DNA of 64,000 bases. Origin: a virus. A model generated the notes under the pieces. That model saw nothing but the letters and a program-made list of their open reading frames with translations, did not search any database and had not been told where the DNA came from. A program made the translations under genes and the position numbers. The stretch covers positions 1 through 64,000 of IMG/VR virus record IMGVR_UViG_3300047557_003310. The stretch is one strand, 5' to 3'. Shown in pieces: positions 1-16,400 of the stretch; position 1 is the first letter of the stretch; every line of letters starts with the position of its first letter.

Positions 1-22
1 CTTTACATGAAATAATAAACAT

Positions 23-43
23 AAGGATCGAAAGATCCTTTTT
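23..43 (+). terminator. Intrinsic terminator
   Basis: AAGGATC-GAAA-GATCCTT hairpin followed by a T run; near-copy with shared flanks at 1099-1121. Confidence 0.75.
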
Positions 44-67
44 ATTGTTTATACTTTATTATTTTGT

Positions 68-115
68 GACAGGGTTAGCGTGGCTCACTGATCGTCATAG
101 AGCTTCTTGCTCTCC
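68..115 (-). repeat. Conserved 48-bp element, copy 1 (candidate small RNA core)
   Basis: GACAGGGTTAGCGTGGCTCACTGATCGTCATAGAGCTTCTTGCTCTCC; leftward -10 TATAGT at 137-132. Confidence 0.9.
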
Positions 116-166
116 CCTTGTTGTTGATACAACTATAGGGCATCCAGGGTCTCATGGGGTGATGAG

Positions 167-188
167 TGGACAGTTGTTTAACTGGCTG
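167..188. promoter_or_regulatory. 22-bp early-promoter palindrome, copy 1
   Basis: TGGACAGTT-GTTT-AACTGGCTG between divergent -10-like boxes. Confidence 0.7.
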
Positions 189-251
189 ACATGTGGTTTT
201 TCTGAGTGATTTTGGTTTAATATGAACAAGTCGGAAATCCGTTTTCTTCTC

Positions 252-617
252 ATGACTGAACAGTATCATGGTCTCGGTGGTATCGAACTGATCGGAACTG
301 ATACCTTTAGGTATAAGGATCAAACGGCATTTCGTTATTGTTTCCAAACCTGGAAAGTCTTTAACATTGAGGAGAATGTGATTGATACTGATCGATTCTA
401 TGTGTGGGCTGATGCAGTAGATACAGCCTACAAGATTGCAGTGGAACATGTTTATCGTCCACTGAATGCACCTTATCATGAGGCAGTAGATTCAGGTGAA
501 GGTGGTGGTCGTTATGAAGTGAATCTCAATGAACAACATCGTGAAGTAGAGGTTGAAACTGATGAACAGTGGCACACTCTAATGTACGGTCATCGTGATG
601 ATTTTTACCTAGGTTAA
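252..617 (+). CDS. Hypothetical early protein (acidic, ~121 aa)
   Basis: ORF 222..617; ATG 252 preferred because ATG 222 overlaps the -10 box; followed by a hairpin terminator. Confidence 0.7.
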   Translation: MTEQYHGLGGIELIGTDTFRYKDQTAFRYCFQTWKVFNIEENVIDTDRFYVWADAVDTAYKIAVEHVYRPLNAPYHEAVDSGEGGGRYEVNLNEQHREVEVETDEQWHTLMYGHRDDFYLG

Positions 618-626
618 TAGTATTGC

Positions 627-666
627 TGGGAGTCTGACAGTATCACAGGCTCCCACAAGATTTTTA
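627..666 (+). terminator. Hairpin terminator
   Basis: TGGGAGTCTG...CAGGCTCCCA followed by a T-rich tract. Confidence 0.6.
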
Positions 667-713
667 TATTTTTTTCGTATTTTTTCGTTTTAATTTAGTA
701 TTTCGTATTTTTT

Positions 714-761
714 GGCAGGGTGATTGTGGCTTACTGATCGTCATCGAGCTTCTTGCTCTCC
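714..761 (-). repeat. Conserved 48-bp element, copy 2
   Basis: GGCAGGGTGATTGTGGCTTACTGATCGTCATCGAGCTTCTTGCTCTCC; leftward extended -10 TGG-TAGACT at 786-778. Confidence 0.9.
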
Positions 762-824
762 CTTGGTTGTTGAATACAGTCTACCATGCCATGAGACGCA
801 CAGACCACCTGATGACCATAAGGT

Positions 825-882
825 GTGCCACTTTTTTTCTGGCACAAGACGCTTGACCAGTTCCACAGGGGGATGAGAGACT
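825..882 (+). promoter_or_regulatory. Palindrome plus sigma70-like promoter
   Basis: GTGCCACTT-N3-TTCTGGCAC (825-845), TTGACC (853-858), GAGACT (877-882). Confidence 0.65.
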
Positions 883-907
883 ATAGAAGTCGAAAGGGAT
901 TCCACCC

Positions 908-1075
908 ATGGCAGTCGATTCGCTCTCCAAGACCATCTACCGTCAGCTGTTCACTGAAGAGCAATGGCTGATGATCTACATGATGATCGAAAATGCCTAC
1001 GATGATGATGTGTGGAGTCATGGCGATGCTGATGTCATTCGCAGAAAGATTCGCCTCTTATGTGATTTCATTTGA
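908..1075 (+). CDS. Small hypothetical early protein (55 aa)
   Basis: Translated by hand: MAVDSLSKTIYRQLFTEEQWLMIY...LCDFI*; lies between promoter and terminator, below the ORF-track cutoff. Confidence 0.75.
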   Translation: MAVDSLSKTIYRQLFTEEQWLMIYMMIENAYDDDVWSHGDADVIRRKIRLLCDFI

Positions 1076-1098
1076 TAATTATTAATAATAATTATCAT

Positions 1099-1121
1099 AA
1101 GGATCTTATGATCCTTTTTTT
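1099..1121 (+). terminator. Intrinsic terminator
   Basis: AAGGATC-TTAT-GATCCTT plus T run. Confidence 0.75.
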
Positions 1122-1145
1122 ATTCTTTATACTTAACTATTTCAT

Positions 1146-1193
1146 GGCAGGGTTAGCGTGGCTTACTTATCGTCAACGAGCTTCGTGCTCTCC
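1146..1193 (-). repeat. Conserved 48-bp element, copy 3
   Basis: GGCAGGGTTAGCGTGGCTTACTTATCGTCAACGAGCTTCGTGCTCTCC; leftward TGC-TAGACT at 1220-1212. Confidence 0.9.
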
Positions 1194-1256
1194 TCTTCTC
1201 TTGTTGCTAACAGTCTAGCAGGTCGTGGGGTCGTTTCAACCGATTCTGGTCAAATT

Positions 1257-1315
1257 GGGACAGTTCGACCACTGGCACAAGCTGGTTGGATCTGGTCGGC
1301 ATCTGGACCCATACT
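1257..1315 (+). promoter_or_regulatory. Palindrome plus sigma70-like promoter
   Basis: GGGACAGTT-CGAC-CACTGGCAC (1257-1278), TTGGAT (1286-1291), CATACT (1310-1315). Confidence 0.65.
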
Positions 1316-1340
1316 AGGTGAGTCCCAAGCAATCCGAGCC

Positions 1341-1820
1341 ATGCTCACCGGATCCGAACTCATCTCCAAGGTCACCGAGCTGCAGCAGCAGAACGCCACA
1401 CGTACTGACATTGTGCTTGGCTGCGGCTATGTCAAGCCTGACGGCAAGGCTGCCTATGTGGCCTTCTACGAAGCTCTGATCGAGGCTAAGACGCCACAAT
1501 GGCAAAAGCAAAAGGAAGAGATCGAGACAGAGATCGAGTTCGATGATGAGGAGCAAGAGGAGCAATTCCTGGAGCTTTGTGTCAATTATCCCCAGAAAGC
1601 TCTGGAGATTTACTATGAAAACATCGGCAACTTCGATGAGTTCGAAGAAGCTTACCAAGGAGAATACGATAGCGAGGCGCACTTTACTGAGGAAATTATC
1701 GCTGACATCTCTGAGCGTCAACTTCCCAGCTGGATTGTTGTAGATTATCAGGCAACATGGGATAGTTCAATGCGCTTTGATTACTGGGAGGAGGATAACT
1801 ACTTCTTCCAGAACATGTGA
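1341..1820 (+). CDS. Fusion of a cyanobacterial AbrB-like N-terminal domain and an ArdA-like antirestriction (DNA-mimic) domain
   Basis: N-term MLTGSELISKV...CGYV..DGK...AFYEALIEAK resembles the cyAbrB N-terminus; very acidic C-term FEEAYQGEYDSEAHF...LPSWIVVDYQA...DYWEEDNYFF resembles ArdA; ATG 1341 chosen downstream of the promoter. Confidence 0.65.
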   Translation: MLTGSELISKVTELQQQNATRTDIVLGCGYVKPDGKAAYVAFYEALIEAKTPQWQKQKEEIETEIEFDDEEQEEQFLELCVNYPQKALEIYYENIGNFDEFEEAYQGEYDSEAHFTEEIIADISERQLPSWIVVDYQATWDSSMRFDYWEEDNYFFQNM

Positions 1821-1827
1821 TAGATTT

Positions 1828-1854
1828 AGAGGGGAATCTTTCCCCTCTTTTTTT
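1828..1854 (+). terminator. Intrinsic terminator
   Basis: AGAGGGGAA-TCT-TTCCCCTCT plus T run. Confidence 0.85.
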
Positions 1855-1878
1855 ATACTTTTCTTTTTTATATTTCAT

Positions 1879-1926
1879 GGCAGGGTGACTGTGGCTTACT
1901 TTTCGTCATCGGCCTTCTTAGCCTCG
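1879..1926 (-). repeat. Conserved 48-bp element, copy 4
   Basis: GGCAGGGTGACTGTGGCTTACTTTTCGTCATCGGCCTTCTTAGCCTCG; leftward TGC-TAGAAT at 1951-1943. Confidence 0.9.
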
Positions 1927-1977
1927 GTTCGCTTGTGAGTTAATTCTAGCAGGCAGCCTCCCCAGCTATGGCCGCGG

Positions 1978-2037
1978 CAACCAGTTCGATCACTGGCACA
2001 AGGCGGCTAGACCGCTGGTTTTGGTGGCTGGTATCTT
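1978..2037 (+). promoter_or_regulatory. Palindrome plus sigma70-like promoter
   Basis: CAACCAGTT-CGAT-CACTGGCAC (1978-1999), TAGACC (2008-2013), TGG-TATCTT (2029-2037). Confidence 0.65.
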
Positions 2038-2062
2038 TAAGGAGTCGAGGCAATCAAGCCCA

Positions 2063-2524
2063 ATGAACACCGACCTCCAGGCCATCACTGCTCAACTCGC
2101 CACTGTAGCAGCATCGCTGAACACTCTACAAGAGGCTTTGGCATTGCTCCAGGAGCAGCAGGCATCCATCCCCACCAACAACGCTCTGGCGCCTTTCTCG
2201 GCTTTCCTGATGGTGGAGCTGACGCCTTACTTCGGTGGCACAATGGCCAAGGCAATTGTTGATAGTCTGAACCGCTGCAATCAACGCGGAGACTATCGCT
2301 ACTTCATCCCAATGTATGAAATCGCAGCTGATGATCTGCAAAAGCGTCAACTGCTGAAACTCGTTTCTGCTATTCATCGTTACAAATTCGTCTACAGTAA
2401 GCAACACAATCACCCCCAAAAGTATAGCCTCAAGTCTGACATTAAATACGCAAAAGCTTGTTCCCATTGTGGTGCACTTGCTTCTGTTCTTTATGATCGT
2501 CTCGTGAAAGAAGGTCTGTTCTGA
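2063..2524 (+). CDS. Hypothetical early protein (N-terminal coiled coil, CxxC near C-terminus)
   Basis: ORF 2021..2524; ATG 2063 lies downstream of the promoter. Confidence 0.75.
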   Translation: MNTDLQAITAQLATVAASLNTLQEALALLQEQQASIPTNNALAPFSAFLMVELTPYFGGTMAKAIVDSLNRCNQRGDYRYFIPMYEIAADDLQKRQLLKLVSAIHRYKFVYSKQHNHPQKYSLKSDIKYAKACSHCGALASVLYDRLVKEGLF

Positions 2525-2652
2525 TGAAGATCTTTGTCTTTGCACTGGTTGCTGTTACTTTCAGCAACACACTGGTTGCATCTTTCAAGGCAGCCAAAAC
2601 CTTAGATGCTAAGGTTGCAGATCTCACTTGTCAAGTTACCGAACGATGCTGA
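2524..2652 (+). CDS. Small hydrophobic protein (42 aa)
   Basis: TGATG-coupled to the upstream gene; MKIFVFALVAVTFSNTLVASF...ERC*. Confidence 0.6.
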   Translation: MKIFVFALVAVTFSNTLVASFKAAKTLDAKVADLTCQVTERC

Positions 2653-2702
2653 TCTTTCTTTCGATTGTTGTTCGCTTTCACTTTCACCATATAGGCTAAC
2701 CT

Positions 2703-2837
2703 ATGGAAATCATGCAAACTTATGACATCCACACCAAAGAATTGATGTGGGCATATAATGACGGAAAAACCATTTGGTATTTTCAGTCTCATGAAGTACA
2801 ACAGTTTCTTGATGTTCGCCACAGGATTCTTCGATGA
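2703..2837 (+). CDS. Small hypothetical protein (44 aa)
   Basis: MEIMQTYDIHTKELMWAYNDGKTIWYF...ILR*; ATGA overlap with the next ORF. Confidence 0.55.
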   Translation: MEIMQTYDIHTKELMWAYNDGKTIWYFQSHEVQQFLDVRHRILR

Positions 2838-2956
2838 TTGAACTACTCGCTGCTGCATTTATCATCGGTCAAGTAGAGATCGCTCCAGGTATTATCCGCA
2901 CAGAGTATCTCAATGAGGATCGTAAAGTTATCGTAGTGGAGGAAGATAGAGACTAG
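2834..2956 (+). CDS. Small hypothetical protein (40 aa)
   Basis: MIELLAAAFIIGQVEIAPGIIRTEYLNEDRKVIVVEEDRD*; followed by a terminator. Confidence 0.6.
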   Translation: MIELLAAAFIIGQVEIAPGIIRTEYLNEDRKVIVVEEDRD

Positions 2957-2981
2957 GTTTCACGGTGCAATAGGCTCACAC

Positions 2982-3009
2982 AGGGAGAGAGAAATCTCTC
3001 CCTTTTTTT
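2982..3009 (+). terminator. Intrinsic terminator
   Basis: AGGGAGAGA-GAAA-TCTCTCCCT plus T run. Confidence 0.85.
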
Positions 3010-3037
3010 ATATTTTTTTTCGTTTTTTCGTATTCTT

Positions 3038-3105
3038 GTGCCAGCTGGCGAACCGGTACAGGATCTCGTGAGATGCCTCCAGAAGCCCCCACAAGGCGCT
3101 ACAAT
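3038..3105 (+). promoter_or_regulatory. Palindrome plus -10 box (unit lacking the 48-bp element)
   Basis: GTGCCAGCT-GGCG-AACCGGTAC (3038-3059), TACAAT (3100-3105). Confidence 0.6.
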
Positions 3106-3130
3106 TACAGGGTCAACACAAAGACACCCC

Positions 3131-3349
3131 ATGGCCGCCATTATCCCCGATCCCTGCCGCAAGTGGGTCAAAGGCACTCCCTACCGTACCGTGTGCAATG
3201 AGGTCTCAAAGGATGGTACAGTGATCGGTATCGGCACTATTGAGATCTGGGACTACGCTCGCGCAGTCGGTGTGTGCTATGCTTCACCACTACCTAAGCG
3301 TAAAGAACCGGACATTGGTGATCTTTTTCTCGAAATGTTCGGTGCCTGA
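3131..3349 (+). CDS. Hypothetical early protein (72 aa)
   Basis: ORF 3038..3349; ATG 3131 lies downstream of the -10 box. Confidence 0.65.
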   Translation: MAAIIPDPCRKWVKGTPYRTVCNEVSKDGTVIGIGTIEIWDYARAVGVCYASPLPKRKEPDIGDLFLEMFGA

Positions 3350-3360
3350 TTGAGTCTTAT

Positions 3361-3388
3361 GGGGATGATACCTTATGATATCATCCTC
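3361..3388 (+). terminator. Hairpin, possible terminator
   Basis: GGGGATGATA...TATCATCCTC stem after the ORF; no adjacent T run. Confidence 0.45.
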
Positions 3389-3459
3389 ACATAAAAAACA
3401 AATTATAATTAAACAAATCTTATTATTCTTTTTTTATTCTTTATATCTTATTATTTTTT

Positions 3460-3507
3460 CGCAGGGTTAGCGTGGCTTACTTATCGTCAACGGCCTTCGT
3501 GGCCTCC
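3460..3507 (-). repeat. Conserved 48-bp element, copy 5
   Basis: CGCAGGGTTAGCGTGGCTTACTTATCGTCAACGGCCTTCGTGGCCTCC; leftward TAGAAT at 3528-3523. Confidence 0.9.
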
Positions 3508-3567
3508 TTTGCTTGTGAGATAATTCTACAGCATCGGGAGCCGATCCGCGAGACAATCCGCCAAATT

Positions 3568-3626
3568 AAGCCAGTTTGGCCACTGGCACAATGCGGCCAT
3601 GGCAGCTGGCGATCTGGGTTCAGAAT
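3568..3626 (+). promoter_or_regulatory. Palindrome plus -10 box
   Basis: AAGCCAGTT-TGGC-CACTGGCAC (3568-3589), CAGAAT (3621-3626). Confidence 0.6.
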
Positions 3627-3656
3627 GGCGGAGCAACCGCAACCAAGGGCGAAGCT

Positions 3657-3902
3657 GTGACCTACAACCCCACACGCGATGCCGCAACCGCCGAGCACTT
3701 CAGCCGCTGGGCTGCCGAGGCTAAAACTCTCGACGCCTATTCTCTCCAGTATGTAATTAAAGACTGCAGAGAGGCTGCAGAAGCTATGGCTGGCTGGAAT
3801 CCTGTCCGTGAGGGTTTCTACATCGATCAGATGCTAACCTATGCTGCAGAGCTTAACTTGCGCAACTCTAAGTTACCTTTCGGCTTGCGCCATCGCATCT
3901 GA
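3657..3902 (+). CDS. Hypothetical early protein (~81 aa)
   Basis: ORF 3576..3902; GTG 3657 is the first plausible start downstream of the promoter. Confidence 0.65.
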   Translation: MTYNPTRDAATAEHFSRWAAEAKTLDAYSLQYVIKDCREAAEAMAGWNPVREGFYIDQMLTYAAELNLRNSKLPFGLRHRI

Positions 3903-3966
3903 ATGTAGCTAACTCTCAGGGGGCAGAGTATAAAGTCCCCATGCAATCCCACCGCTATTCTTTATC

Positions 3967-4146
3967 ATGAGAATCCAAACTCCCTACAAATTCAGCAAAT
4001 TAGCTTACTTCGGACTTGACACAAAAGCTCGCGTGGGTGATGAGTATTTGGCAGCAGGAATCGGTAGGTTTTATGTCGGAATCTATCCGACATCTAGCGG
4101 CTTTGATCTATCCTGCGGCATCCTAGATCAAAACGGTTCACTGTAA
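3967..4146 (+). CDS. Small hypothetical protein (59 aa)
   Basis: MRIQTPYKFSKLAYFGLD...DQNGSL*; leader motif shared with ORFs at 4186 and 5324. Confidence 0.65.
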   Translation: MRIQTPYKFSKLAYFGLDTKARVGDEYLAAGIGRFYVGIYPTSSGFDLSCGILDQNGSL

Positions 4147-4185
4147 CTTTAAGCCTACATTCTCACCCCATCGCTTTAGATTCTC

Positions 4186-4347
4186 ATGACAATCCGCATC
4201 TCTTTCTTTGCACCTTACCCTCGCTTCAATGGCGAGAGAAGAACACAAGAATTCAAAACTATTTCAGAGGCTAGAAGTATGGTGAGCTTCTACAACTCTC
4301 TGGGGTTTTATGATGCAAAAGTCGAAACTTTTGCCGATAAAGTATAA
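4186..4347 (+). CDS. Small hypothetical protein (53 aa)
   Basis: MTIRISFFAPYPRFNGERRTQEFKTISEARSMVSFYNSLG...DKV*. Confidence 0.65.
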   Translation: MTIRISFFAPYPRFNGERRTQEFKTISEARSMVSFYNSLGFYDAKVETFADKV

Positions 4348-4412
4348 TTAAAGTTTTATGTCAGGGGCGGCTGGCCTGGCCCCCCTGGCATGGTAGGATT
4401 GGTGAAACCGGT

Positions 4413-4459
4413 AGAGGGTCCGAAGCCCAGCGACGAAAGTGAGCCACGCTTACCCTGCC
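4413..4459 (+). repeat. Conserved element, copy 6 (inverted, 47 bp)
   Basis: AGAGGGTCCGAAGCCCAGCGACGAAAGTGAGCCACGCTTACCCTGCC is the reverse complement of the consensus; preceded by TGG-TAGGAT (4391-4399). Confidence 0.9.
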
Positions 4460-4556
4460 ATGAAATAGTAGTGTGACGGATTGTTACGGTTTGGCGATTC
4501 GAGCCACGGTGCCGCCTTCCTAGGTCCTACATTGGCGGAGCCAATGCAATCGAGCC

Positions 4557-5258
4557 ATGCAAACCCTCACCGTCACCGCAACCAACCTTGGCAGCGTCAG
4601 CCGCGCCGATGACATTGCACGCGCCGCGCGTCACGCCGCATTGAGCGATCCTCGCGTGATGACCGTCACCGCTCGTGGGGAGGTTGTAACCTTTGAAAGC
4701 CGCCTGAGCGATGACGCTGCGCAGGATCTCCTGCAGTGGTGTTCTGGCCGCTTTGCAAAGTCGCTATGGCAGCAGTCTCACGAGCGTGGCCTGTCGCCAG
4801 CTCAGATGGCCTGGGCTCACAAGCTCTCCACTGATCTTCTGCAGGCAGAATCTGCGGAGGATGATAACAACGAGCCCCAGTTTGAGCGGCTCTTCAGTGT
4901 ATTTCAGGCTGCAAAGTCTCGCGGATTGAAGCGACTCACACTGCGTTTAAGCGGTGTAAATGTAAAGCCAAACCGTGACAATACGGCATTATGGGTCACT
5001 TCTCAGACTGAGACTGAGGAAGGTAATTATGGTCCTCAGCCAAAGTATCTCGGTAAAATTACACCTAACCGTTTAGATTCTCGCCTCTCTGATGATATCA
5101 AGGCGGTGCTTTTAGAGGCCGCCAGTGATCCTCTCACCGCCGCAGTTCGCTACGGTAAAGAGACTGGCAGCTGTTCATGTTGCGGTCGTGATCTAACCAA
5201 TCCCCAATCAATCGAGCTGGGAATCGGTCCTATCTGCCGTGAAAAGTTCGGCCTCTAG
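4557..5258 (+). CDS. DUF6011-type Zn-finger-like phage protein
   Basis: C-terminal CSCCGRDLTNPQSIELGIGPIC matches the CxxCGRxLT...S...GIGPxC signature. Confidence 0.7.
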   Translation: MQTLTVTATNLGSVSRADDIARAARHAALSDPRVMTVTARGEVVTFESRLSDDAAQDLLQWCSGRFAKSLWQQSHERGLSPAQMAWAHKLSTDLLQAESAEDDNNEPQFERLFSVFQAAKSRGLKRLTLRLSGVNVKPNRDNTALWVTSQTETEEGNYGPQPKYLGKITPNRLDSRLSDDIKAVLLEAASDPLTAAVRYGKETGSCSCCGRDLTNPQSIELGIGPICREKFGL

Positions 5259-5323
5259 GTATAACTAACCGACCTGGGCATGTCGTTAAACTGCCCCCAC
5301 AATCCCATCGCTATTTGATTCTC

Positions 5324-5650
5324 ATGATCAACAATCGCGGCACCATTGTTTACACTCCCAACAGTGCAGATCTGGTGAAAATTTACATCGAAGTGTGCGA
5401 GATTATCGTATGCTTTGCAGTCGCAATCGTGAAAGAATTGTTTACTCTAACTGTTCGCGCAGTTAGCTTCTGTGAGAAGTGGCAAGAATGGCGTGGTTTC
5501 TATCGCATTGGACCTGTAGAAGTCGGCTTTGATCTACAGCAACAGTGGGACGATTTAGAGGTAGTTTGGTTCACTTGGGATCTTAAAGAGGTTGGTTTCA
5601 GTATCTACTGGTGCCGTCAGGATGGCTGGCAGAAGGTAAGCTGGCACTAA
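5324..5650 (+). CDS. Hypothetical Trp-rich protein
   Basis: ORF 5315..5650; ATG 5324 follows the shared CCCATCGCT...TTCTCATG leader. Confidence 0.65.
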   Translation: MINNRGTIVYTPNSADLVKIYIEVCEIIVCFAVAIVKELFTLTVRAVSFCEKWQEWRGFYRIGPVEVGFDLQQQWDDLEVVWFTWDLKEVGFSIYWCRQDGWQKVSWH

Positions 5651-5724
5651 GATCTTATGGGGTGACAGTGTAATTAACTGTTACCCCACTAAGTATACCT
5701 AACTGTGGCGTATAATAGGTATAA

Positions 5725-5783
5725 AAGACAGTCGAAAAAGTGTCACAGGGACAGTTGACGGATCGTCCATGCCGTGGTAGGGT
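5725..5783 (+). promoter_or_regulatory. Palindrome plus sigma70-like promoter
   Basis: AAGACAGTC-GAAA-AAGTGTCAC (5725-5746), TTGACG (5755-5760), 17 bp, TAGGGT (5778-5783). Confidence 0.6.
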
Positions 5784-5914
5784 TGGGCCATGCGGGTAAA
5801 AAAGAATGGGACCCCATAAGCTATAAAGCTATCCACTCGCCTCATAAGTATCAAATACATAAAAAAATCAAAAAAACCCCATTCCAAATAAAATCCGCCG
5901 CCCATAAGAATCTT

Positions 5915-6127
5915 ATGAATAGTTCGAATCTGAAATTAAATCGAAAAACCATTAGACCCCAAAAAATCGCCGCCAGAAAAAATTCCCCAAAACCCCCCAC
6001 GCCATATTGGAATTTCTGGAAGGTTGTATTTGCTGGATGGTTAATTAGGTATCCAAAAACTTTTATGAAATTAATTGGATTACCGATTGGGTTTATTTTA
6101 GTGATGATATATAATGCGTCCAGATAA
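5915..6127 (+). CDS. Small membrane protein, cyanophage hypothetical
   Basis: PYWNFWKVVFAGWLIRYPK plus hydrophobic C-terminus; start uncertain. Confidence 0.6.
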   Translation: MNSSNLKLNRKTIRPQKIAARKNSPKPPTPYWNFWKVVFAGWLIRYPKTFMKLIGLPIGFILVMIYNASR

Positions 6128-10464: not shown

Positions 10465-13400
10465 ATGATTAAGAAAAGAGTAAAAATATCATCTATTGTA
10501 GAAAATCAACTTCCTATTTTTGTTAGGGAAGAATTTCCACTGATTTCTGAATTTCTTAGTCAATATTATAAATCTTTAGATGGACAAGGATCAACTTATG
10601 ATATACTTCAAAATATAGATCAATATATTAAATTAGAAAATGTTACTAATTTAATAGAATCAACTCGTTTATCATCAGCTGTTGATTTATTTGATGCGAA
10701 TATAAATGTAGAATCTACTAGTGGATTCCCAGATAATAATGGGATAATTAGAATTGACGATGAAATTATTTTATATGAAAGTAAAACGGAATCACAATTT
10801 TTAAATTGTATTAGGGGATTCAGCGGAGTAACATCATATACTACCAGTAACAAACCAGAAGAGTTAACATTTTCCACATCTACAACTTCTAATCATTCAA
10901 ATGAATCAATTGTAGAAAATTTAAGTATTTTATTCTTAAAAGAATTTTTTGCCAAACTAAAAAAACAAATTATTCCTGGATTTGAAAATGTAAAATTTTA
11001 TTCTGATGGCGAATTAAAATTAAATGAAAACAATTTTATTATAAATTCAAAAAATTTCTATTCTACCAAAGGAACAGATACTTCATTTGAATTATTGTTT
11101 AAAGCACTATATGGCGACCCAGCAACAGTCATTAAACCTAGAGATTTTGTAATTAGACCATCAGACTCAAATTACAAAATAACAAAAAATTTAGTAGTAG
11201 AATCAATTGAAGGTGATGCAAATCAACTTTATAATAGGACTTTGTTCCAAAAACAATCTCAAGGATTGAAAGAAACTTTTGGGACTGTTACTAAAGTAGA
11301 GGAAATAATAAAAGATAATAATACTTATTATGTGTTAAGTTTAGACTTTGATTATGATAAAGACATTAGTGTTAGAGGATCAATATTTGGGGATTTTTCT
11401 ATTCACCCAAAAACTAAAGTCATAAGAAATACTAGAAGAAATTTACCTTCAATTGTAGTAGATTCGACCATAAATTTCCCTGAATCTGGCGAACTTATAG
11501 TAGAAACTGAATTTAGTACGAGTGTAGTTAAGTACAATTCAAAAAATATAAATCAATTCTTAGAATGTACGGGTGAAATAGACGATATAGATGTTGGCTC
11601 AAATGTATATCTAAATGTTTATGCATATTCTTTAGTAAATGATGCAGAAATAAAAGTCAGAATATTAGGTATTTTACAGGATATTGAAATTCCAAACAAT
11701 TCTAGATATTTTTCTAACGAACAATTTATAAAATTTAATACTTTAGGAAAATTACAAGATAATTTTAAATATAATGATTGGATAACAAATATTCCAGTCG
11801 AACATAAAGTTTCAAAATTTGAATACCTCGATAATTCAAAAATTAAAATTTATACAATAGATACAAACTTTGTTACTGTTTCTGATCAAATTTATATTGT
11901 ATTTTTTGATATTGATATTGATGATATCAATGAACAACCTTTTGAAGTTGAATCGGTTTCACAAGATAAAAAATCAATAATTGTAACAAATCCATATAGA
12001 ATTTCAAAAATATATTCAATAACAAAGTCAGTAAAAACGTATGTTAATAATTTTGGTGACGAAATTATTAGTGATGTACAAAATGTATACTCCGATAATT
12101 TAGATAATGTTTATGTGACCTCACAAGGGATTCCAGGATATGTAGATTATTCAATTGCAAAAAAGAATTTTTCAATAAATTTATTTGGCTTATTGAATTC
12201 AATAGAAGATGAAAAAATTGGAATAACAACTCAAATTAATAATTCCATTGTAGATATTGATATATCTGTAAATTCATCTCAAATACATGATTATAAAACT
12301 GGAGATTCCGTAGTTTACTTACAAAATCCAGTTACATATACTCTTGATGACGGCAGAACGATAGAGTTGAATGTATATAATCAACTTAATCACAATCAAA
12401 CTTACTATGTTGAAAGAATATCTGATAGTAAATTAAGACTATACAAAAGTAGATCCAACATATATTTTAATAGATATACTAATATTGAGTATAATAGGTT
12501 ATATTCACCAATAAACTTAAAGCAGGAATCATTTACTAATAATCAAAAAATTCAATTATTAAGTAATAATTATTTTTTACAAGATAACGACTTTGTATTA
12601 TTATTTGATGATGATAACAATATCGAAATTTGGTATTATACATACAGTCTAAATCAATGGGAACAGATAAAAGTAAATATTTCTGGCCAATTATTTAAGA
12701 GCGAGTATATAACTAATGAACAAAATAAAAAATTAAGTGGTTCAAATTTAATTAAAAAATTATCTGAGCCTAAAATTCCAGAAAAATTAGAAGAAACTAA
12801 TTTTGGTGCGACCGGAATATTAGCGAATGGTGTAGAAATATTAAATTACAAATCAAATGATTTCATTTATTATGGAGAGATTGAAAAAATAAATGTCATA
12901 TCACCAGGATCAGAATATGACGTGATCAATCTACCTTCACTTCAAATATCACCAGAAATTACTACTACGGATCCTTGTATTCCTTACCTGGAAGTAACCG
13001 GAGAATTGGTAAAAATTAATGTTTTAGATGGCGGATTTGACTTTTTAGATGAACCAAAAATAAAAATTTCTGGAGGAAATGGATCAGGAGCCGAAGTAAA
13101 AGCAAATTTAATTTCATTTAAACATGAGGTCAATTTAAATCCAACCGTAAAATTTGTAAATTTAGCAGAAAACACAATTTCATTCTCAACATATCATAAA
13201 TTTAGAGCCTATGAAGAAGTAATATATCAAACAAATAATCAGAAGGCTATAGGCGGTATATCTACTAATTCAGTATATTATGTTTCAGTTCAGGATGATC
13301 TAAAAATAAAGTTACACAATACTAAAGAAGATGCACTGGCTGGAATTGCAATTAGTTTAACTTCATATGGAGACGGATCACAAAAACTAATATCAAAAGA

Positions 13401-16400
13401 AGAAAAGAAAAAAATATCATCTGTTACGGTATTAAATTCAGGTAAAAATTATAAAAATAATACTGTTATAATAGCTTCATCTGGAATTAATACCTATGAT
13501 AGTACAATAACAGCGAATAATCATGGTTATGTTACTGGTGATATAGTTAAATATCAGTGCACCGAAACATATCCAGTAGGCTTAGGCGAAGAAAATTATT
13601 ATGTCACAAGAATAGATTACAATAATTTTAAATTATCTAATGTTGGTGTAGGAACTACAGCTAAAGATTTTTACTTTAAAACTAACCAATACGTAACTAT
13701 TTCTACATCTGGTATAGGAACACATACATTTAAACATGAACCAATAAGCTTAGAAGTATTAGGAAAAACTGGAATTTCTTCTTATTCCAGTAATTTATTT
13801 TTACCCAAATTAACTCCAGTTTTTAGAGGCTCAATCTCTAATGTTTACATTCAAAATGGTGGAATAGGGTATGGAAGTTCTGAAATATTAAACTATGAAA
13901 AACAACCATTTTTTACAATAAATTCTGGTAAAAATGCTCAATTTTTACCTAATGTTGTGGATGGAGTCATTAAAGATGTTTATGTCATAAATGGTGGAAG
14001 TGGCTACACTACCCCAGAATTAGTTATAACCGGCTCTGGTATTGGTTGCATCTTAAATCCAGTTGTGGATAATGGGGTGATTAAAAATGTAGTTGTAGTT
14101 AATGGAGGATCTGGATATCAAAAAAATAATACTTTAGTTGAGGCTATAACTTTTGGTAAGAATTCTTCATTTCAAGCGAAAATAAAATCTTGGAATGTTA
14201 ATTCTACGTTTAGAATAATTAATTCTAATAATTTGTTGTCTCCTGATGATGGAGTACTATCACCAGGGGAAAATAATAACTTAAAATATTCACATTTATA
14301 TTACCCAACCGAGCTTAGAAAAAAAGTATTTTCTAAATTTTTAGATGAAAATGGTAATCTTATATTCAGGTCTGATTATGAAAACAGTACTTCAAATATA
14401 AAATATCATTCTCCTATTGTAGGATGGGCTTATGATGGAAATCCAATATATGGACCATATGGATACTCAAATCCAATTAAGAAAAGTTCAATTAAAAAAA
14501 TAATATCTGGATATGAATTATTGCCATCTAGTAAAAGACCCCCACAAAAAAAAGGAGATAATATAATATTTCCAAATGGTTTTTTTGTAGATGATTATGT
14601 TTTTACTGGAAATGGAGATTTAGATGAAAATAATGGAAGGTATTGTGTAACACCAGAGTATCCGAATGGAACATATGCTTATTTCTGCACTGTATCTGAA
14701 AATGACGATTTTAAACCAGAATTTCCTTATATTATAGGAAAATATTTTAGATCCAAAAAAATAATAGAAAATTTCGACCCCAAGAGTAATCAAAATTCTT
14801 TTGATTACAACAATGTTCTTAGAAACACATATTTTTATTCATTAAAGGATTTAAATTCAAATTATAAATTTTTAAGCACTCCTAACCAAGATTTAAATCA
14901 AACCATAAAGATTAAATCTACATCATATGGAAAATTAAATTCAATCGGAATAATTACTGGTGGACAGAATTATTCCGTAGGAGATTATGTTAAATTTGAT
15001 AATTCATCCACTAATGGTTATGGGGCAAATGCTTCAGTAGACTATGTATTGGGTAAACCAGTAACCACATTACAAAATAATAAGTATACATTAAACAATA
15101 TAGAAATTTATTCGCAGTCAAATTATTATATTGGAATATCTACTGAAACTCATCAATTAAATGATTTGGATTTTGTCAATATTGTTGGCAAATTAAATCT
15201 TCCCGAATCTAAAAATATAAATGATTTTGTAAATGTTGGAGTAAGATCTCAATTTTTAACCCTAACAGAATCAGTTAATAGCACCAGTTCGACTGGAATT
15301 GTTACTATTTTTTCAGTTGAAGGCAATTTACAATTTCCCTTTTTACTAGAAAATGATTTTTATAAAATTGACGATGAAGTAATAAAAATACTTAAAATTG
15401 ATCAAAATGAGTCAAAAATAAAAGTTCTTAGGAATCCAACCGGATCCTCTCACACTGCAAAATCCAAATTAGTAGAACTAACTAGAAAATTCAACTTTAA
15501 TTTAAATAAACCATTCAATTCACAAACTTTAAATAGACAATATTATTTCAATCCAACCGAAAACGTTGGTTTTGGGACAACAACTGGATCAACAGTTTCA
15601 ATTAATTATACTGGAATTGGAACTACAAGCTTAAATATCCCTGCTGGTAGTTTTTATATTCCAAATAATGATTTAGATACTAATACGCCTTTAATTTATT
15701 CGCCAAATGGCGGTAATTCAATTAAAGTATCTAATGGTTCTAGTATATTTGATTTATCTAATTCAAAACAAATATATTCAATAAAATTATCTAATGATTT
15801 TATTGGTATATCTAGTAACAAGGTTTCAATTGGAACTGAAGGAAAGTATGTTGGAATTGGAACAACAACTACGTTTTTATACGTCACTGATTATGGTACA
15901 GGCAATTACCACAGTTTTAAAACTGATTATCCTAATGTAATTAAAGTTGATTTACAAAGAAATAATATTAGGGTTTCTACATCATCTACTCATGGATTAA
16001 GAGTGGGGGATTTGATATCAATTAATGTAAAATCTGGAATAACAACAACACTAAAACTAGAATATAATGAAGCAAACAGAAGATTAACCACAAATAAAAA
16101 ATATTTTTCCTCAATTAATACTGTTGATTCTACAATTGAAATAGTTGATCACAATTATTACAATGGACAACCAATAATTTATACTTCAAGTTCTCCATCA
16201 ATTGGGTTGGAAAATAATAGAATATATTATGTCATAGTTATAGACAAAGATAATTTAAATTTAGCTAGTAGCGAGTACAACTCTATCACATCAAATCAAA
16301 AAATTAATATTACATCGTCATCTTCTGGTTATCTATATGAAATAAATCCAAATATTAATATACTAAGAAATCAAAAAATTATATTTGATCTATCTGATAG

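What the first reader, a model, noticed from the sequence alone, without database searches (positions are those of the whole stretch)
68..4468. Six dispersed copies of a conserved, promoter-driven structured element: a candidate multicopy phage small RNA family
Seen in sequence: a 47-48 bp element at 68, 714, 1146, 1879, 3460 and, inverted, 4413-4459. Invariant blocks are CAGGGT-N4-GTGGCTYACT-N1-2-TCGTC followed by a 4-bp hairpin. In the opposite orientation it reads GA-[stem]-NNGAA-[stem]-NNN-GACGA-NN-AGURAGCCAC-N4-ACCCUG. The stem covaries across copies: GAGC/GCUC (three copies), GGCC/GGCC, GGCU/GGCC and GGGU/GCCC. The last two pair as U-G wobbles only in this orientation, which argues for an RNA on that strand. 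Every copy has a -10 box (TATAGT, TAGACT, TAGACT, TAGAAT, TAGAAT, TAGGAT; four with a TGn extension) about 15-20 bp upstream in the same orientation. The -10 box flips with the inverted copy. No ORF is conserved. Inference: an early ~60-110 nt non-coding RNA made from six separate promoters. Possible roles are a protein decoy or sponge (anti-defence or anti-RNAP), or a boxB/boxA-like antitermination signal. I do not recognise it as a named Rfam family.
Basis: partly seen in the sequence, partly recalled or inferred. Interest (0 to 1): 0.9.

Follow-up and report, generated by a model that had tools for sequence, protein, structure and literature searches.

The report
Multi-copy cyanophage early small RNA gene
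A lake virus of cyanobacteria carries seven copies of a short promoter-equipped non-coding unit with a small conserved hairpin, mostly pointing against its early genes; it looks like an undescribed small RNA family whose expression and job are still untested.

Summary
The motif occurs 6 times in the window (0.01 expected), and a 7th copy lies 557 bases upstream in the same record.

The virus is a T4-like cyanomyovirus known from freshwater-labelled metagenomes. Related viral contigs carry 7-12 copies each. Diverged versions occur in a second uncultured lineage and in the cultured lake phage Synechococcus phage B23.

Two lines of evidence place the functional molecule on the strand opposite to the genes:
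- All 256 of 256 hairpin cells pair on that strand, 30 of them as G-U. Those 30 would be C-A mismatches on the gene strand.
- A TAnnnT -10 box lies 13-21 nt upstream of the hairpin in 61 of 62 copies, with a TGn extension in 45.

Each unit sits in a PeSL-like cassette: terminator, RNA unit, conserved motif, gene promoter, small orphan gene.

There is no Rfam match. No RNA data were available, the 3' end is unclear and the function is unknown. The nut/boxB idea is not supported.

Verdict: a likely new phage non-coding RNA family, of moderate to high interest.

The parts
53..137 (-). RNA unit copy 1: -10 TATAGT at 132-137, hairpin at 100-112, conserved core at 70-96, AU-rich tail to 53
   Evidence: model R1 84.6 bits
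699..783 (-). RNA unit copy 2: TGgTAGACT with -10 at 778-783, hairpin at 746-758
   Evidence: R1 80 bits
1131..1217 (-). RNA unit copy 3: TGcTAGACT with -10 at 1212-1217 (TTGAAA 16 nt upstream), hairpin at 1178-1190
   Evidence: R1 93 bits
1864..1948 (-). RNA unit copy 4: TGcTAGAAT with -10 at 1943-1948, hairpin at 1911-1923 (GGCU/GGCC, with a U-G pair)
   Evidence: R1 80 bits
3445..3528 (-). RNA unit copy 5: -10 TAGAAT at 3523-3528, hairpin at 3492-3504
   Evidence: R1 86.5 bits
4391..4474 (+). RNA unit copy 6, inverted so that it reads with the genes: TGgTAGGAT with -10 at 4394-4399, hairpin at 4416-4428 (GGGU/GCCC). It is followed by the DUF6011-type gene at 4557-5258.
   Evidence: R1 75.6 bits. 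The same position about 4 kb upstream of gp6 is seen in L158, L161 and L162.
23..40 (+). Terminator stem-loop of the upstream gene. It also scores as a terminator on the - strand, so it could end copy 1's RNA.
1099..1116 (+). Terminator stem-loop ahead of copy 3 (gene strand)
1828..1848 (+). Terminator stem-loop ahead of copy 4 (gene strand)
4361..4388 (+). G+C-rich hairpin that closes the preceding gene block, just upstream of copy 6's -10 box
   Evidence: read from the sequence; not scored by the scan
1272..1280 (+). CTGGCACAA motif between the two divergent promoters. It also occurs at 839-847, 1993-2001 and 3583-3591 (+) and at 3036-3044 (-). At 826-849 it is part of a palindrome TGTGCCA-N10-TGGCACA.
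   Evidence: TGGCACAA is found in 29 of 64 downstream flanks
2029..2047 (+). Example of the gene-side promoter: TGgTATCTT with -10 at 2032-2037, then GGAGTCG at 2041-2047. The ATG is at 2063.
   Evidence: read from the sequence; inferred, not tested

Best explanation
Each copy is a small transcription unit read by the host RNA polymerase from an extended -10 promoter (TGnTAnnnT) on the strand opposite to the early genes.

Its RNA has four parts:
- about 15 purine-rich bases at the 5' end;
- a 4-bp hairpin whose sequence varies while its pairing is kept;
- about 40 conserved, unpaired bases (GAYGACGA-N1-2-AGURAGCCAC-N4-AYCCUGCC-AURAAAUA);
- an A-rich tail, which is the antisense of the upstream gene's terminator U-tract.

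The unit is one half of a repeated early-gene cassette, ordered as terminator stem-loop, RNA unit, shared motif or palindrome, gene-side promoter, short leader and small orphan gene. Recombination between cassettes shuffles genes, as it does at the PeSL cassettes of T4-type phages.

Seen in sequence comparisons here: the repeat, the strand-specific covarying hairpin, the conserved -10 box, the cassette order, and the spread of the family across three lineages.

Inferred:
- That the RNA is made early.
- That it acts as an RNA in trans. My odds are about 55%: the 7-12 promoter-equipped copies would give a high dose, and the invariant unpaired tract ending in CCUGC would bind a conserved host or core-phage partner.
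- That the copy number came from cassette duplication.

Which partner it binds is unknown.
For: Repeat and family:
- 6 matches against 0.01 expected; 7 copies in the record.
- 80 model matches at 70-96 bits in 16 of 23 fetched viral loci, with nothing between 70 bits and the E 0.01 cut-off.

Hairpin:
- 256 of 256 cells pair. Two pairs show double changes (GC 34/AU 30; GC 38/CG 26). There are 30 G-U cells. 0 of 500 shuffles reach the observed percentage paired or covariation score, and slid registers give 19-48% paired.
- All four pairs form in 64 of 64 copies on this strand, against 35 of 64 on the gene strand.
- In 15 diverged copies a hairpin at the same place is more stable on this strand in 14.
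- In the model-fitted wider alignment, 232 of 232 cells pair, 29 of them G-U.

Promoter:
- TAnnnT lies 13-21 nt upstream of the stem in 61 of 62 copies, with TGn in 45.
- The T, A and T of the hexamer are invariant in 29 of 29 sequences from three subfamilies, while the flanks vary.

The unit stands on its own:
- It is found inverted at the array end in G000, L158, L161 and L162.
- It is found in tandem, without a partner gene promoter, in L225.
- A cassette at 2982-3130 has a terminator and gene promoter but no unit.

Gene shuffling: a variant contig in run X2 joins 1281 to 2008, both breakpoints lying at the shared CACTGGCACAAG motif.

No known RNA family matches and there is no tRNA or tmRNA.
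Against: - No transcript has been seen for any copy, so the promoter and strand are inferred from sequence alone.
- Only one 4-bp helix is supported. RNAalifold finds nothing else, which is thin for a structured RNA.
- Folding energy does not favour this strand in the main clade: mean -5.13 against -4.82 kcal/mol, lower on this strand in 29 copies, on the other in 31, equal in 4. The other strand gains UUCG-type loops.
- A canonical terminator on the RNA's strand follows only 21 of 62 copies, against 38 of 62 on the gene strand. A discrete small RNA is therefore not assured.
- The many copies are related by descent and gene conversion, so cell counts overstate the number of independent events.
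- A -10-like TATTAT lies 7 nt from CAGG on the gene strand in all subfamilies (25 or 34 of 62 depending on register). Transcription of the other strand is not excluded.
- No target signal was found among the phage's own start regions.
Confidence: 0.55

Rival explanations
1. The unit is a promoter plus conserved 5' leader that heads long transcripts, not a discrete small RNA. The six leftward copies would send antisense transcription through the upstream early genes, causing interference and double-stranded RNA, as an insulator or a shut-off. The one rightward copy would feed the next gene block.
For: - Only 21 of 62 copies have a canonical terminator on that strand.
- The inverted copy (4391-4474) and the tandem copies in L225 have none.
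- The single inverted copy always lies at the array end facing the DUF6011 gene and gp6, in G000, L158, L161 and L162. L225 has the same synteny.
- Cyanobacteria lack Rho (recalled, not tested).
Against: - About a third of the copies do have a two-way terminator.
- The downstream genes of the inverted copies have their own promoter-like boxes.
- Both promoters of a cassette look like the same host-type class, so no timing switch is evident.
- There are no expression data.
Confidence: 0.2
2. The conserved block works as DNA. It would be a protein-binding or recombination site of a mobile regulatory cassette (PeSL-like), and the hairpin and -10 box would be by-products of common descent.
For: - Cassette position between orphan genes in a hyperplastic region.
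- A strain variant whose junction lies at a cassette motif.
- Assembly contigs break at the repeats.
- PeSLs are documented as recombination points (PMC4122927: abstract, introduction and one passage read).
Against: - A DNA duplex site does not explain compensatory changes that keep pairing in 256 of 256 cells, or G-U pairs on one strand only.
- It also does not explain a hairpin of changed sequence and loop at the same place in two diverged subfamilies.
- The variant junction lies at the CACTGGCACAAG motif, not in the RNA unit.
Confidence: 0.1
3. The functional molecule is the gene-strand RNA: a conserved 5' leader of early mRNAs started from an AT-rich promoter just upstream of CAGGGT. It could form a convergent sense/antisense pair with the other strand's RNA.
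For: - TATTAT-like hexamers lie 7 nt upstream of CAGG in all three subfamilies.
- A terminator and T-tract directly upstream mean that each gene needs a new start.
- UUCG-type loops are stable on this strand.
Against: - The hexamer fits TAnnnT in only 25 or 34 of 62 copies, against 61 of 62 for the other strand's box.
- 30 hairpin cells are C-A or A-C mismatches on this strand, so only 35 of 64 copies keep four pairs.
- A better promoter-like box lies closer to most genes.
- The inverted copy would fire this RNA into no gene.
Confidence: 0.08
4. The units are R-loop replication origins of the T4 oriF/oriG kind: a promoter whose purine-rich transcript invades the AT-rich, easily melted DNA just downstream and primes DNA synthesis.
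For: - The promoter is followed within about 75 nt by a 30-40 bp stretch that is almost all A/T.
- The RNA is 62.5% purine.
- The T4 precedent is recalled, not read here.
Against: - 7-12 clustered copies is unlike the T4 origins.
- The inverted copies and the tandem L225 copies lack the AT-rich stretch.
- An origin model does not need a conserved hairpin or the CCUGC tract.
Confidence: 0.05

Closest known systems
PeSL cassettes (promoter-early stem-loop) of T4-type phages RB49/phi1, PST/T4 and nt-1/KVP40 (PMC2839356: search listing and abstract only; PMC4122927: abstract, introduction and one passage read)
   Same: Repeated composite regulatory cassettes between small orphan genes in the hyperplastic regions of T4-like myoviruses. 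Each has a terminator stem-loop followed by host-type promoter signals. Related strains differ by gene gain or loss with junctions in the cassette (one case here).
   Different: A PeSL is a stem-loop followed directly by a -35/N17/-10 promoter reading into the next gene. Here the best-kept -10 box reads the other way and heads a conserved stretch of about 70 nt with a covarying hairpin. The gene's own promoter lies about 100-150 nt further on. PMC4122927 does not mention cyanophages (0 occurrences).
Phage cis-antisense small RNAs with their own promoter: lambda OOP, P22 Sar (recalled, not read here)
   Same: A short non-coding RNA from its own promoter, convergent with an upstream phage gene and ending near that gene's terminator.
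   Different: Those are single-copy and act by pairing with the overlapped mRNA. Here there are 7-12 near-identical copies beside unrelated genes. The conserved part lies outside the upstream mRNA, and one copy faces the other way.
Cis-acting antitermination RNAs: lambda nut (boxA/boxB) and HK022 put (recalled)
   Same: A small hairpin-containing RNA element just downstream of an early promoter. The inverted copy sits ahead of a gene block.
   Different: The loops are NNGAA (AAGAA, CCGAA, ACGAA, CCUAA), or 4-7 nt of other sequence in the diverged subfamilies, not a GNRA-like pentaloop. No boxA was seen. There is one 4-bp helix rather than the two put stem-loops. Six of seven copies face away from genes.
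Multi-copy cyanobacterial small RNA families such as Yfr2-5 (recalled; represented in Rfam)
   Same: Several dispersed, promoter-equipped copies of a short RNA with a conserved unpaired motif.
   Different: There is no Rfam match at E up to 10. The motif differs. The copies are phage-borne and embedded in gene cassettes.

Membership tests
PeSL cassette | Lies between small, mostly orphan ORFs of a hyperplastic region of a T4-like myovirus | tested here: met
   The baseplate gp6/gp7/gp8 PHROG hits mark a T4-like virus. Of 10 small ORFs, 7 have no PHROG family, 1 is anti-restriction-like and 1 is DUF6011-like. All 35 ORFs of 150 aa or more lie on one strand.
PeSL cassette | Terminator stem-loop at the upstream edge of the cassette | tested here: met
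   A gene-strand terminator lies within 150 nt upstream in 38 of 62 copies by a strict rule. In the window these are 23-40, 1099-1116 and 1828-1848.
PeSL cassette | Sigma-70-type early promoter (-35, N17, -10) directly after the stem-loop, reading into the next gene | tested here: not met
   The scan finds one such site next to a unit (28-55), and the total of 7 sites is no more than in shuffles (mean 6.4). The invariant -10 box reads the other way. Gene-side boxes lie further downstream.
PeSL cassette | Gene gain or loss between close relatives with junctions in the cassette | tested here: met
   There is one case. A contig of run X2 joins 1281 to 2008 with 5 letters between, both ends at the CACTGGCACAAG motif, which removes the anti-restriction-like gene and one unit.
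Any Rfam 15 family (including CRISPR-DR, Yfr, riboswitch and ribozyme models) | Covariance-model match at or near the gathering score | tested here: not met
   In window 1-6000 at E up to 10 there are 8 weak matches, none on a unit. In 141 bases around copy 3, with laxer filters, there are 4 matches, all on the terminator or AT-rich part and at 13.3 bits or less.
lambda nut (boxA/boxB) | boxB hairpin with a GNRA-like pentaloop, a boxA motif, sense orientation ahead of an operon | tested here: not met
   The loops are CCGAA in 22 copies, AAGAA in 21, ACGAA in 20 and CCTAA in 1. Six of 7 copies face away from genes. The boxA consensus is recalled and was looked for only by eye.
Discrete terminator-ended small RNA | Own promoter, plus an intrinsic terminator on the same strand within about 150 nt | tested here: inconclusive
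   A promoter box is present in 61 of 62 copies. A terminator on that strand is present in 21 of 62. No RNA data are available.
T4 oriF/oriG-type origin | Promoter followed by an AT-rich unwinding element; a persistent R-loop | not testable with these tools
   An AT-rich stretch is present after most copies but absent after the inverted and tandem copies. The R-loop cannot be tested.

The most novel reading that the evidence does not exclude
The unit is a class-marking promoter-leader that runs the phage's switch out of early expression. The leftward copies would drive terminator-passing antisense transcription through the early orphan genes and silence them. The single copy that always faces the next gene block (the DUF6011 gene, then the baseplate genes) would turn that block on. 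All of this would hinge on one conserved nascent RNA (hairpin plus CCUGC tract) that modifies or escorts the host polymerase.

This would give T4-like cyanophages a mechanism for the early-to-middle transition. They are said to lack MotA/AsiA (recalled). No match to either Pfam family was found in G000, G001 or B23, but no positive control rang in those searches.
Probability: 0.12. Interest if true: 0.85.

Novelty: new variant of a known kind. Interest (0 to 1): 0.6.

Why it matters
Phage-encoded regulatory RNAs are few, and almost none are known for the T4-like cyanophages that kill a large share of aquatic picocyanobacteria.

A non-coding unit kept in 7-12 promoter-equipped copies, with parts invariant across viruses whose baseplate gp6 proteins are only about 55% identical, points to a partner that matters early in infection. 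That partner could be a host factor being titrated, a defence sensor, or the polymerase itself.

The unit also extends the PeSL idea. Here the gene-shuffling junctions of a T4-like genome carry a functional RNA gene and not only signals.

One member, phage B23, is in culture with its host, so the question can be tested directly.

Tried and rejected
RNA evidence. No listed holder of the stretch is on record as RNA. When two metatranscriptome-labelled runs (X21, X22) were laid, each gave one short low-identity piece and no cover of any unit. This says nothing about expression.

Host mimicry. I gave 100 of those 120 loci to model R1. The best match was 21.4 bits, against 70-96 bits for the family. 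None of the listed records was cyanobacterial. The question of whether the host carries a look-alike or a target therefore stays open, because no cyanobacterial genome could be reached.

Known phages. Megablast of window 1-6000 and blastn of one cassette against 50,697 phage records found nothing.

Targets in the phage. Duplex folding of one unit's RNA against 111 gene-start regions gave a best energy of -27.5 kcal/mol, while mononucleotide-shuffled RNAs gave a best mean of -29.8. There is no signal, and the method is crude.

Second helix. GURAGC/GCUNAC around the CAC is broken by the AGUC and AAUC variants and was rejected. A closing helix between the 5' purine tract and CCCUG exists only in some leader types and was also rejected.

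Other readings rejected:
- N4-type hairpin promoter for a virion polymerase: the giant ORFs are baseplate proteins, not polymerases.
- Sigma-54 reading of TGGCAC: the spacing and the -12 box do not fit (read by eye).
- Mini-ORF AUG-AAA-UAG: the start is not conserved.
- Co-occurrence with the DUF6011 gene: it is present in G001 but absent from B23.

Literature. Six full-text searches found no description of this element.
- Doron et al. 2016 (Syn9 transcriptome) and Dreher et al. 2011 (S-CRM01) are not held.
- Supplements are closed, so a listing of such an RNA there cannot be excluded.
- The B3/B23 genome announcement (PMC7171214, whole text read) does not mention it.

Full report
Observation. 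The 20-base pattern CAGGGT-N4-GTGGCTYACT occurs at window 70, 716, 1148, 1881 and 3462 on the + strand and at 4438-4457 on the - strand. All matches are perfect, against 0.01 expected, and 0 of 100 shuffles reach six. The window is G000:C1:4177-68176 of a 100,590-base viral record, and a seventh copy lies at C1:3619. A covariance model built from the family (R1) finds exactly these seven copies in the record, at 75.6-93 bits.

Context.
- All 35 ORFs of 150 aa or more lie on the + strand.
- ORFs at 8.5-30 kb match the baseplate wedge families of T4-like phages: gp6 (phrog_219, 1.1e-197), giant gp7-like proteins, and gp8.
- The nearest cultured phages by gp6 are Synechococcus myoviruses of the Kyanoviridae, at 54.5% identity or less.
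- Three runs from two studies, labelled freshwater metagenome, hold 0.96 of the sampled words. One of them covered 30 of 30 bins when laid, although it may be the source sample.
- The first 5 kb is an array of small + strand ORFs. Of 10 tested, 7 have no PHROG family, one has a weak hit, one matches an anti-restriction family (1.1e-07), and the 233-aa ORF at 4557-5258 matches a family of unknown function that GenBank annotators call DUF6011.
- That this region is "early" is an inference from its layout and from T4.

The family.
- The same pattern occurs in 23 loci of IMG/VR.
- R1 confirms 16 of those loci, from 12 contigs, with 80 matches at 70-96 bits. Nothing lies between 70 bits and the E 0.01 cut-off. 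The other 7 loci are chance pattern matches.
- Contigs that span the array hold 7-12 copies.
- I collected 64 distinct copies and aligned them as read on the gene-opposite strand (A1).

Hairpin and strand.
- On that strand the four pairs form in 256 of 256 cells.
- Pair 2 is GC in 34 copies and AU in 30. Pair 3 is GC in 38 and CG in 26. The outer and inner pairs add 6 and 24 G-U cells.
- 0 of 500 shuffles reach the observed percentage paired or covariation score, and slid registers give 19-48% paired. RNAalifold predicts the same helix and nothing else.
- The 30 G-U cells are C-A or A-C on the gene strand. Four pairs therefore form in 64 of 64 copies on one strand and in 35 of 64 on the other.
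- Seven stem types occur: GAGC/GCUC 30, GGCU/GGCC 16, GGGU/GCCC 7, GGCC/GGCU 5, GGCC/GGCC 4, GGGC/GCCC 1 and GGCU/GGCU 1.
- Against this reading, folding energy of the hairpin region does not separate the strands in this clade: mean -5.13 against -4.82 kcal/mol, lower on the gene-opposite strand in 29 copies, on the gene strand in 31, equal in 4. The gene strand gets UUCG-type loops.
- The copies are kin, so the cell counts are not independent events.

Promoter.
- A TAnnnT hexamer lies 13-21 nt upstream of the stem in 61 of 62 copies with enough flank: TAGACT 30, TAGGAT 14, TAGAAT 9, TATTCT 3, TATGAT 3 and TATAGT 2. TGn precedes it in 45 copies.
- In an alignment of 29 sequences from three subfamilies, the T, A and T of this hexamer are invariant while neighbouring columns vary.
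- On the gene strand, a hexamer at a fixed register ahead of CAGGGT fits TAnnnT in 25 or 34 of 62 copies. This is weaker, but it recurs as TATTAT-N7-CAGG in all subfamilies, so I cannot exclude a convergent start.

Cassette anatomy, read along the gene strand:
- a terminator stem-loop of the upstream gene, strict in 38 of 62 copies;
- a long T-rich tail (TTTTTTTATTCTTTATAC);
- TATTATTTYATGG;
- the conserved block and the hairpin;
- a pyrimidine tract;
- the -10 box of the opposite strand;
- about 40 nt of variable sequence;
- a motif CCAGTT-N-CACTGGCACAAG, or a palindrome TGTGCCA-N10-TGGCACA (TGGCACAA is present in 29 of 64 flanks);
- -35 and -10-like boxes, often TGnTATCTT;
- GGAGTCG, a short leader and the ATG.

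The unit and the gene therefore appear to be read divergently. The gene-side promoter is read by eye. My crude regular expression caught it in only 14-27 of 48 cassettes. A cassette at 2982-3130 has the terminator and gene-side signals but no unit.

The RNA's own strand has a canonical terminator after only 21 of 62 copies. In the window that applies to copy 1 only. The 3' end is therefore open.

Orientation. In G000 six units point against the genes. The seventh (4391-4474) points with them. It lies just after a G+C-rich hairpin and 100 nt ahead of the DUF6011 gene. The three closest gp6-bearing loci show the same inverted copy about 4 kb upstream of gp6 (L158, L161, L162). The diverged lineage L225 has the same synteny with its DUF6011 homologue.

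Wider distribution.
- Of 80 loci fetched through gp6 (55-80% identity), R1 matched 4: L158, L161, L162 and, weakly but many times, L225. Many of these loci hold too little upstream DNA to judge.
- L225 carries 8-11 diverged copies at 18-42 bits.
- Among four cultured Synechococcus myoviruses, R1 matched only phage B23.
- A broader model, R2, finds 7 copies in B23. All are on the gene-opposite strand, in the gaps of an orphan-gene array just upstream of gp25/gp6.
- R2 finds none in S-CRM01, Syn9 or S-PM2, and one marginal 26-bit match in P-SSM2.

What is conserved across the three subfamilies: the -10 box, a CAACAA/CACAAG purine-rich start, a short hairpin, a GA-GA A-rich linker, and CCUGC.
- The hairpin changes stem and loop between subfamilies, for example GGGG/CCCU, GCGG/CCGC, AGCC/GGCU and CGC/GCG. 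It is more stable on this strand in 14 of 15 diverged copies.
- The AGURAGCCAC block is specific to the G000 clade.
- In the model-fitted alignment of 60 distinct rows, 232 of 232 cells pair and 29 are G-U. That alignment leans toward the modelled structure.

Comparison with what is known.
- No Rfam family matches and there is no tRNA or tmRNA.
- The closest described system is the PeSL cassette of T4-type phages: a stem-loop plus an early promoter in hyperplastic regions, acting as a point of gene exchange (PMC4122927: abstract, introduction and one passage read; PMC2839356: abstract only).
- Three PeSL features are met here and one is not: the promoter that directly follows the stem-loop and reads into the gene.
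- One strain variant in run X2 joins 1281 to 2008, at the shared CACTGGCACAAG motif. It loses the anti-restriction-like gene and one unit. This is the PeSL kind of shuffling.
- The nut and put models fail on loop type, helix number and orientation.

Mechanism. The evidence best fits a short non-coding unit transcribed by the host polymerase, with selection acting on the RNA.
- That it acts in trans, at high dose, through its invariant unpaired tract is my preferred reading. The unit keeps its form whether it is divergent from a gene, in tandem or inverted. Its invariance across viruses that differ widely elsewhere suggests a conserved partner.
- The main rival is that it is the 5' leader of longer transcripts, which would be antisense for most copies. 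The scarcity of terminators on its strand keeps that reading alive.
- A purely DNA role, a gene-strand leader and an R-loop origin are each less likely, for the reasons given under the rivals.

An earlier agent of this scan reached the same description on other DNA (e1-5340282, seen after my own analysis). That is not independent evidence.

Noticed in passing
window 826-849, 1262-1282, 1982-2003, 3571-3592 (+) and 3036-3044 (-): A conserved motif, CCAGTT-N6-CACTGGCACAAG or the palindrome TGTGCCA-N10-TGGCACA, sits between the two divergent promoters of most cassettes. It is likely an operator for an unidentified regulator. A second class of cassettes, in L010, L022 and L225, has CGTAACAACACTTAACATTCC-like sequence in its place.
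   Followed up: partly
window 1281-2008: A contig in DNA run X2, about 86% identical over its first piece, joins 1281 to 2008 with 5 letters between. It skips the anti-restriction-like gene and unit copy 4. Assembly contigs of that run also start or stop at the repeats (1149, 3463, 3490).
   Followed up: partly
window 1341-1820: The 159-aa acidic ORF matches an anti-restriction PHROG (phrog_36653, 1.1e-07) over residues 90-157.
   Followed up: partly
window 4557-5258: This 233-aa protein has a C-terminal CxxC...GPxC motif (phrog_4046; annotated elsewhere as DUF6011). Homologues occur in 665 phage records, mostly Mycobacterium and Pseudomonas phages. It always lies just downstream of the inverted RNA unit in this clade and in L225, but it is absent from B23.
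   Followed up: partly
window 2041-2062 and equivalent places: The early mRNA leaders share GGAGTCG at the presumed start and a small GGGATTCC..CCC hairpin just before the ATG. Several read GTCGTCAGGGAT, which echoes the TCGTC and CAGGG blocks of the unit.
   Followed up: no
window 10465-18336: A 2623-aa baseplate or virion protein carries a YHYH domain (PF14240, 1.8e-22) at residues 1313-1412. It is followed by 1500-aa and 1868-aa (DUF4815) proteins.
   Followed up: no
G000 whole record: A search for the photosystem reaction-centre family PF00124 found nothing in the 100,590 bases held. The two may refer to different pieces.
   Followed up: no
AY939844.2 (P-SSM2) 66474-66555, - strand: A single marginal match of the broad model R2 (26.3 bits, E 0.0026) in a marine Prochlorococcus phage. 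It was not inspected.
   Followed up: no
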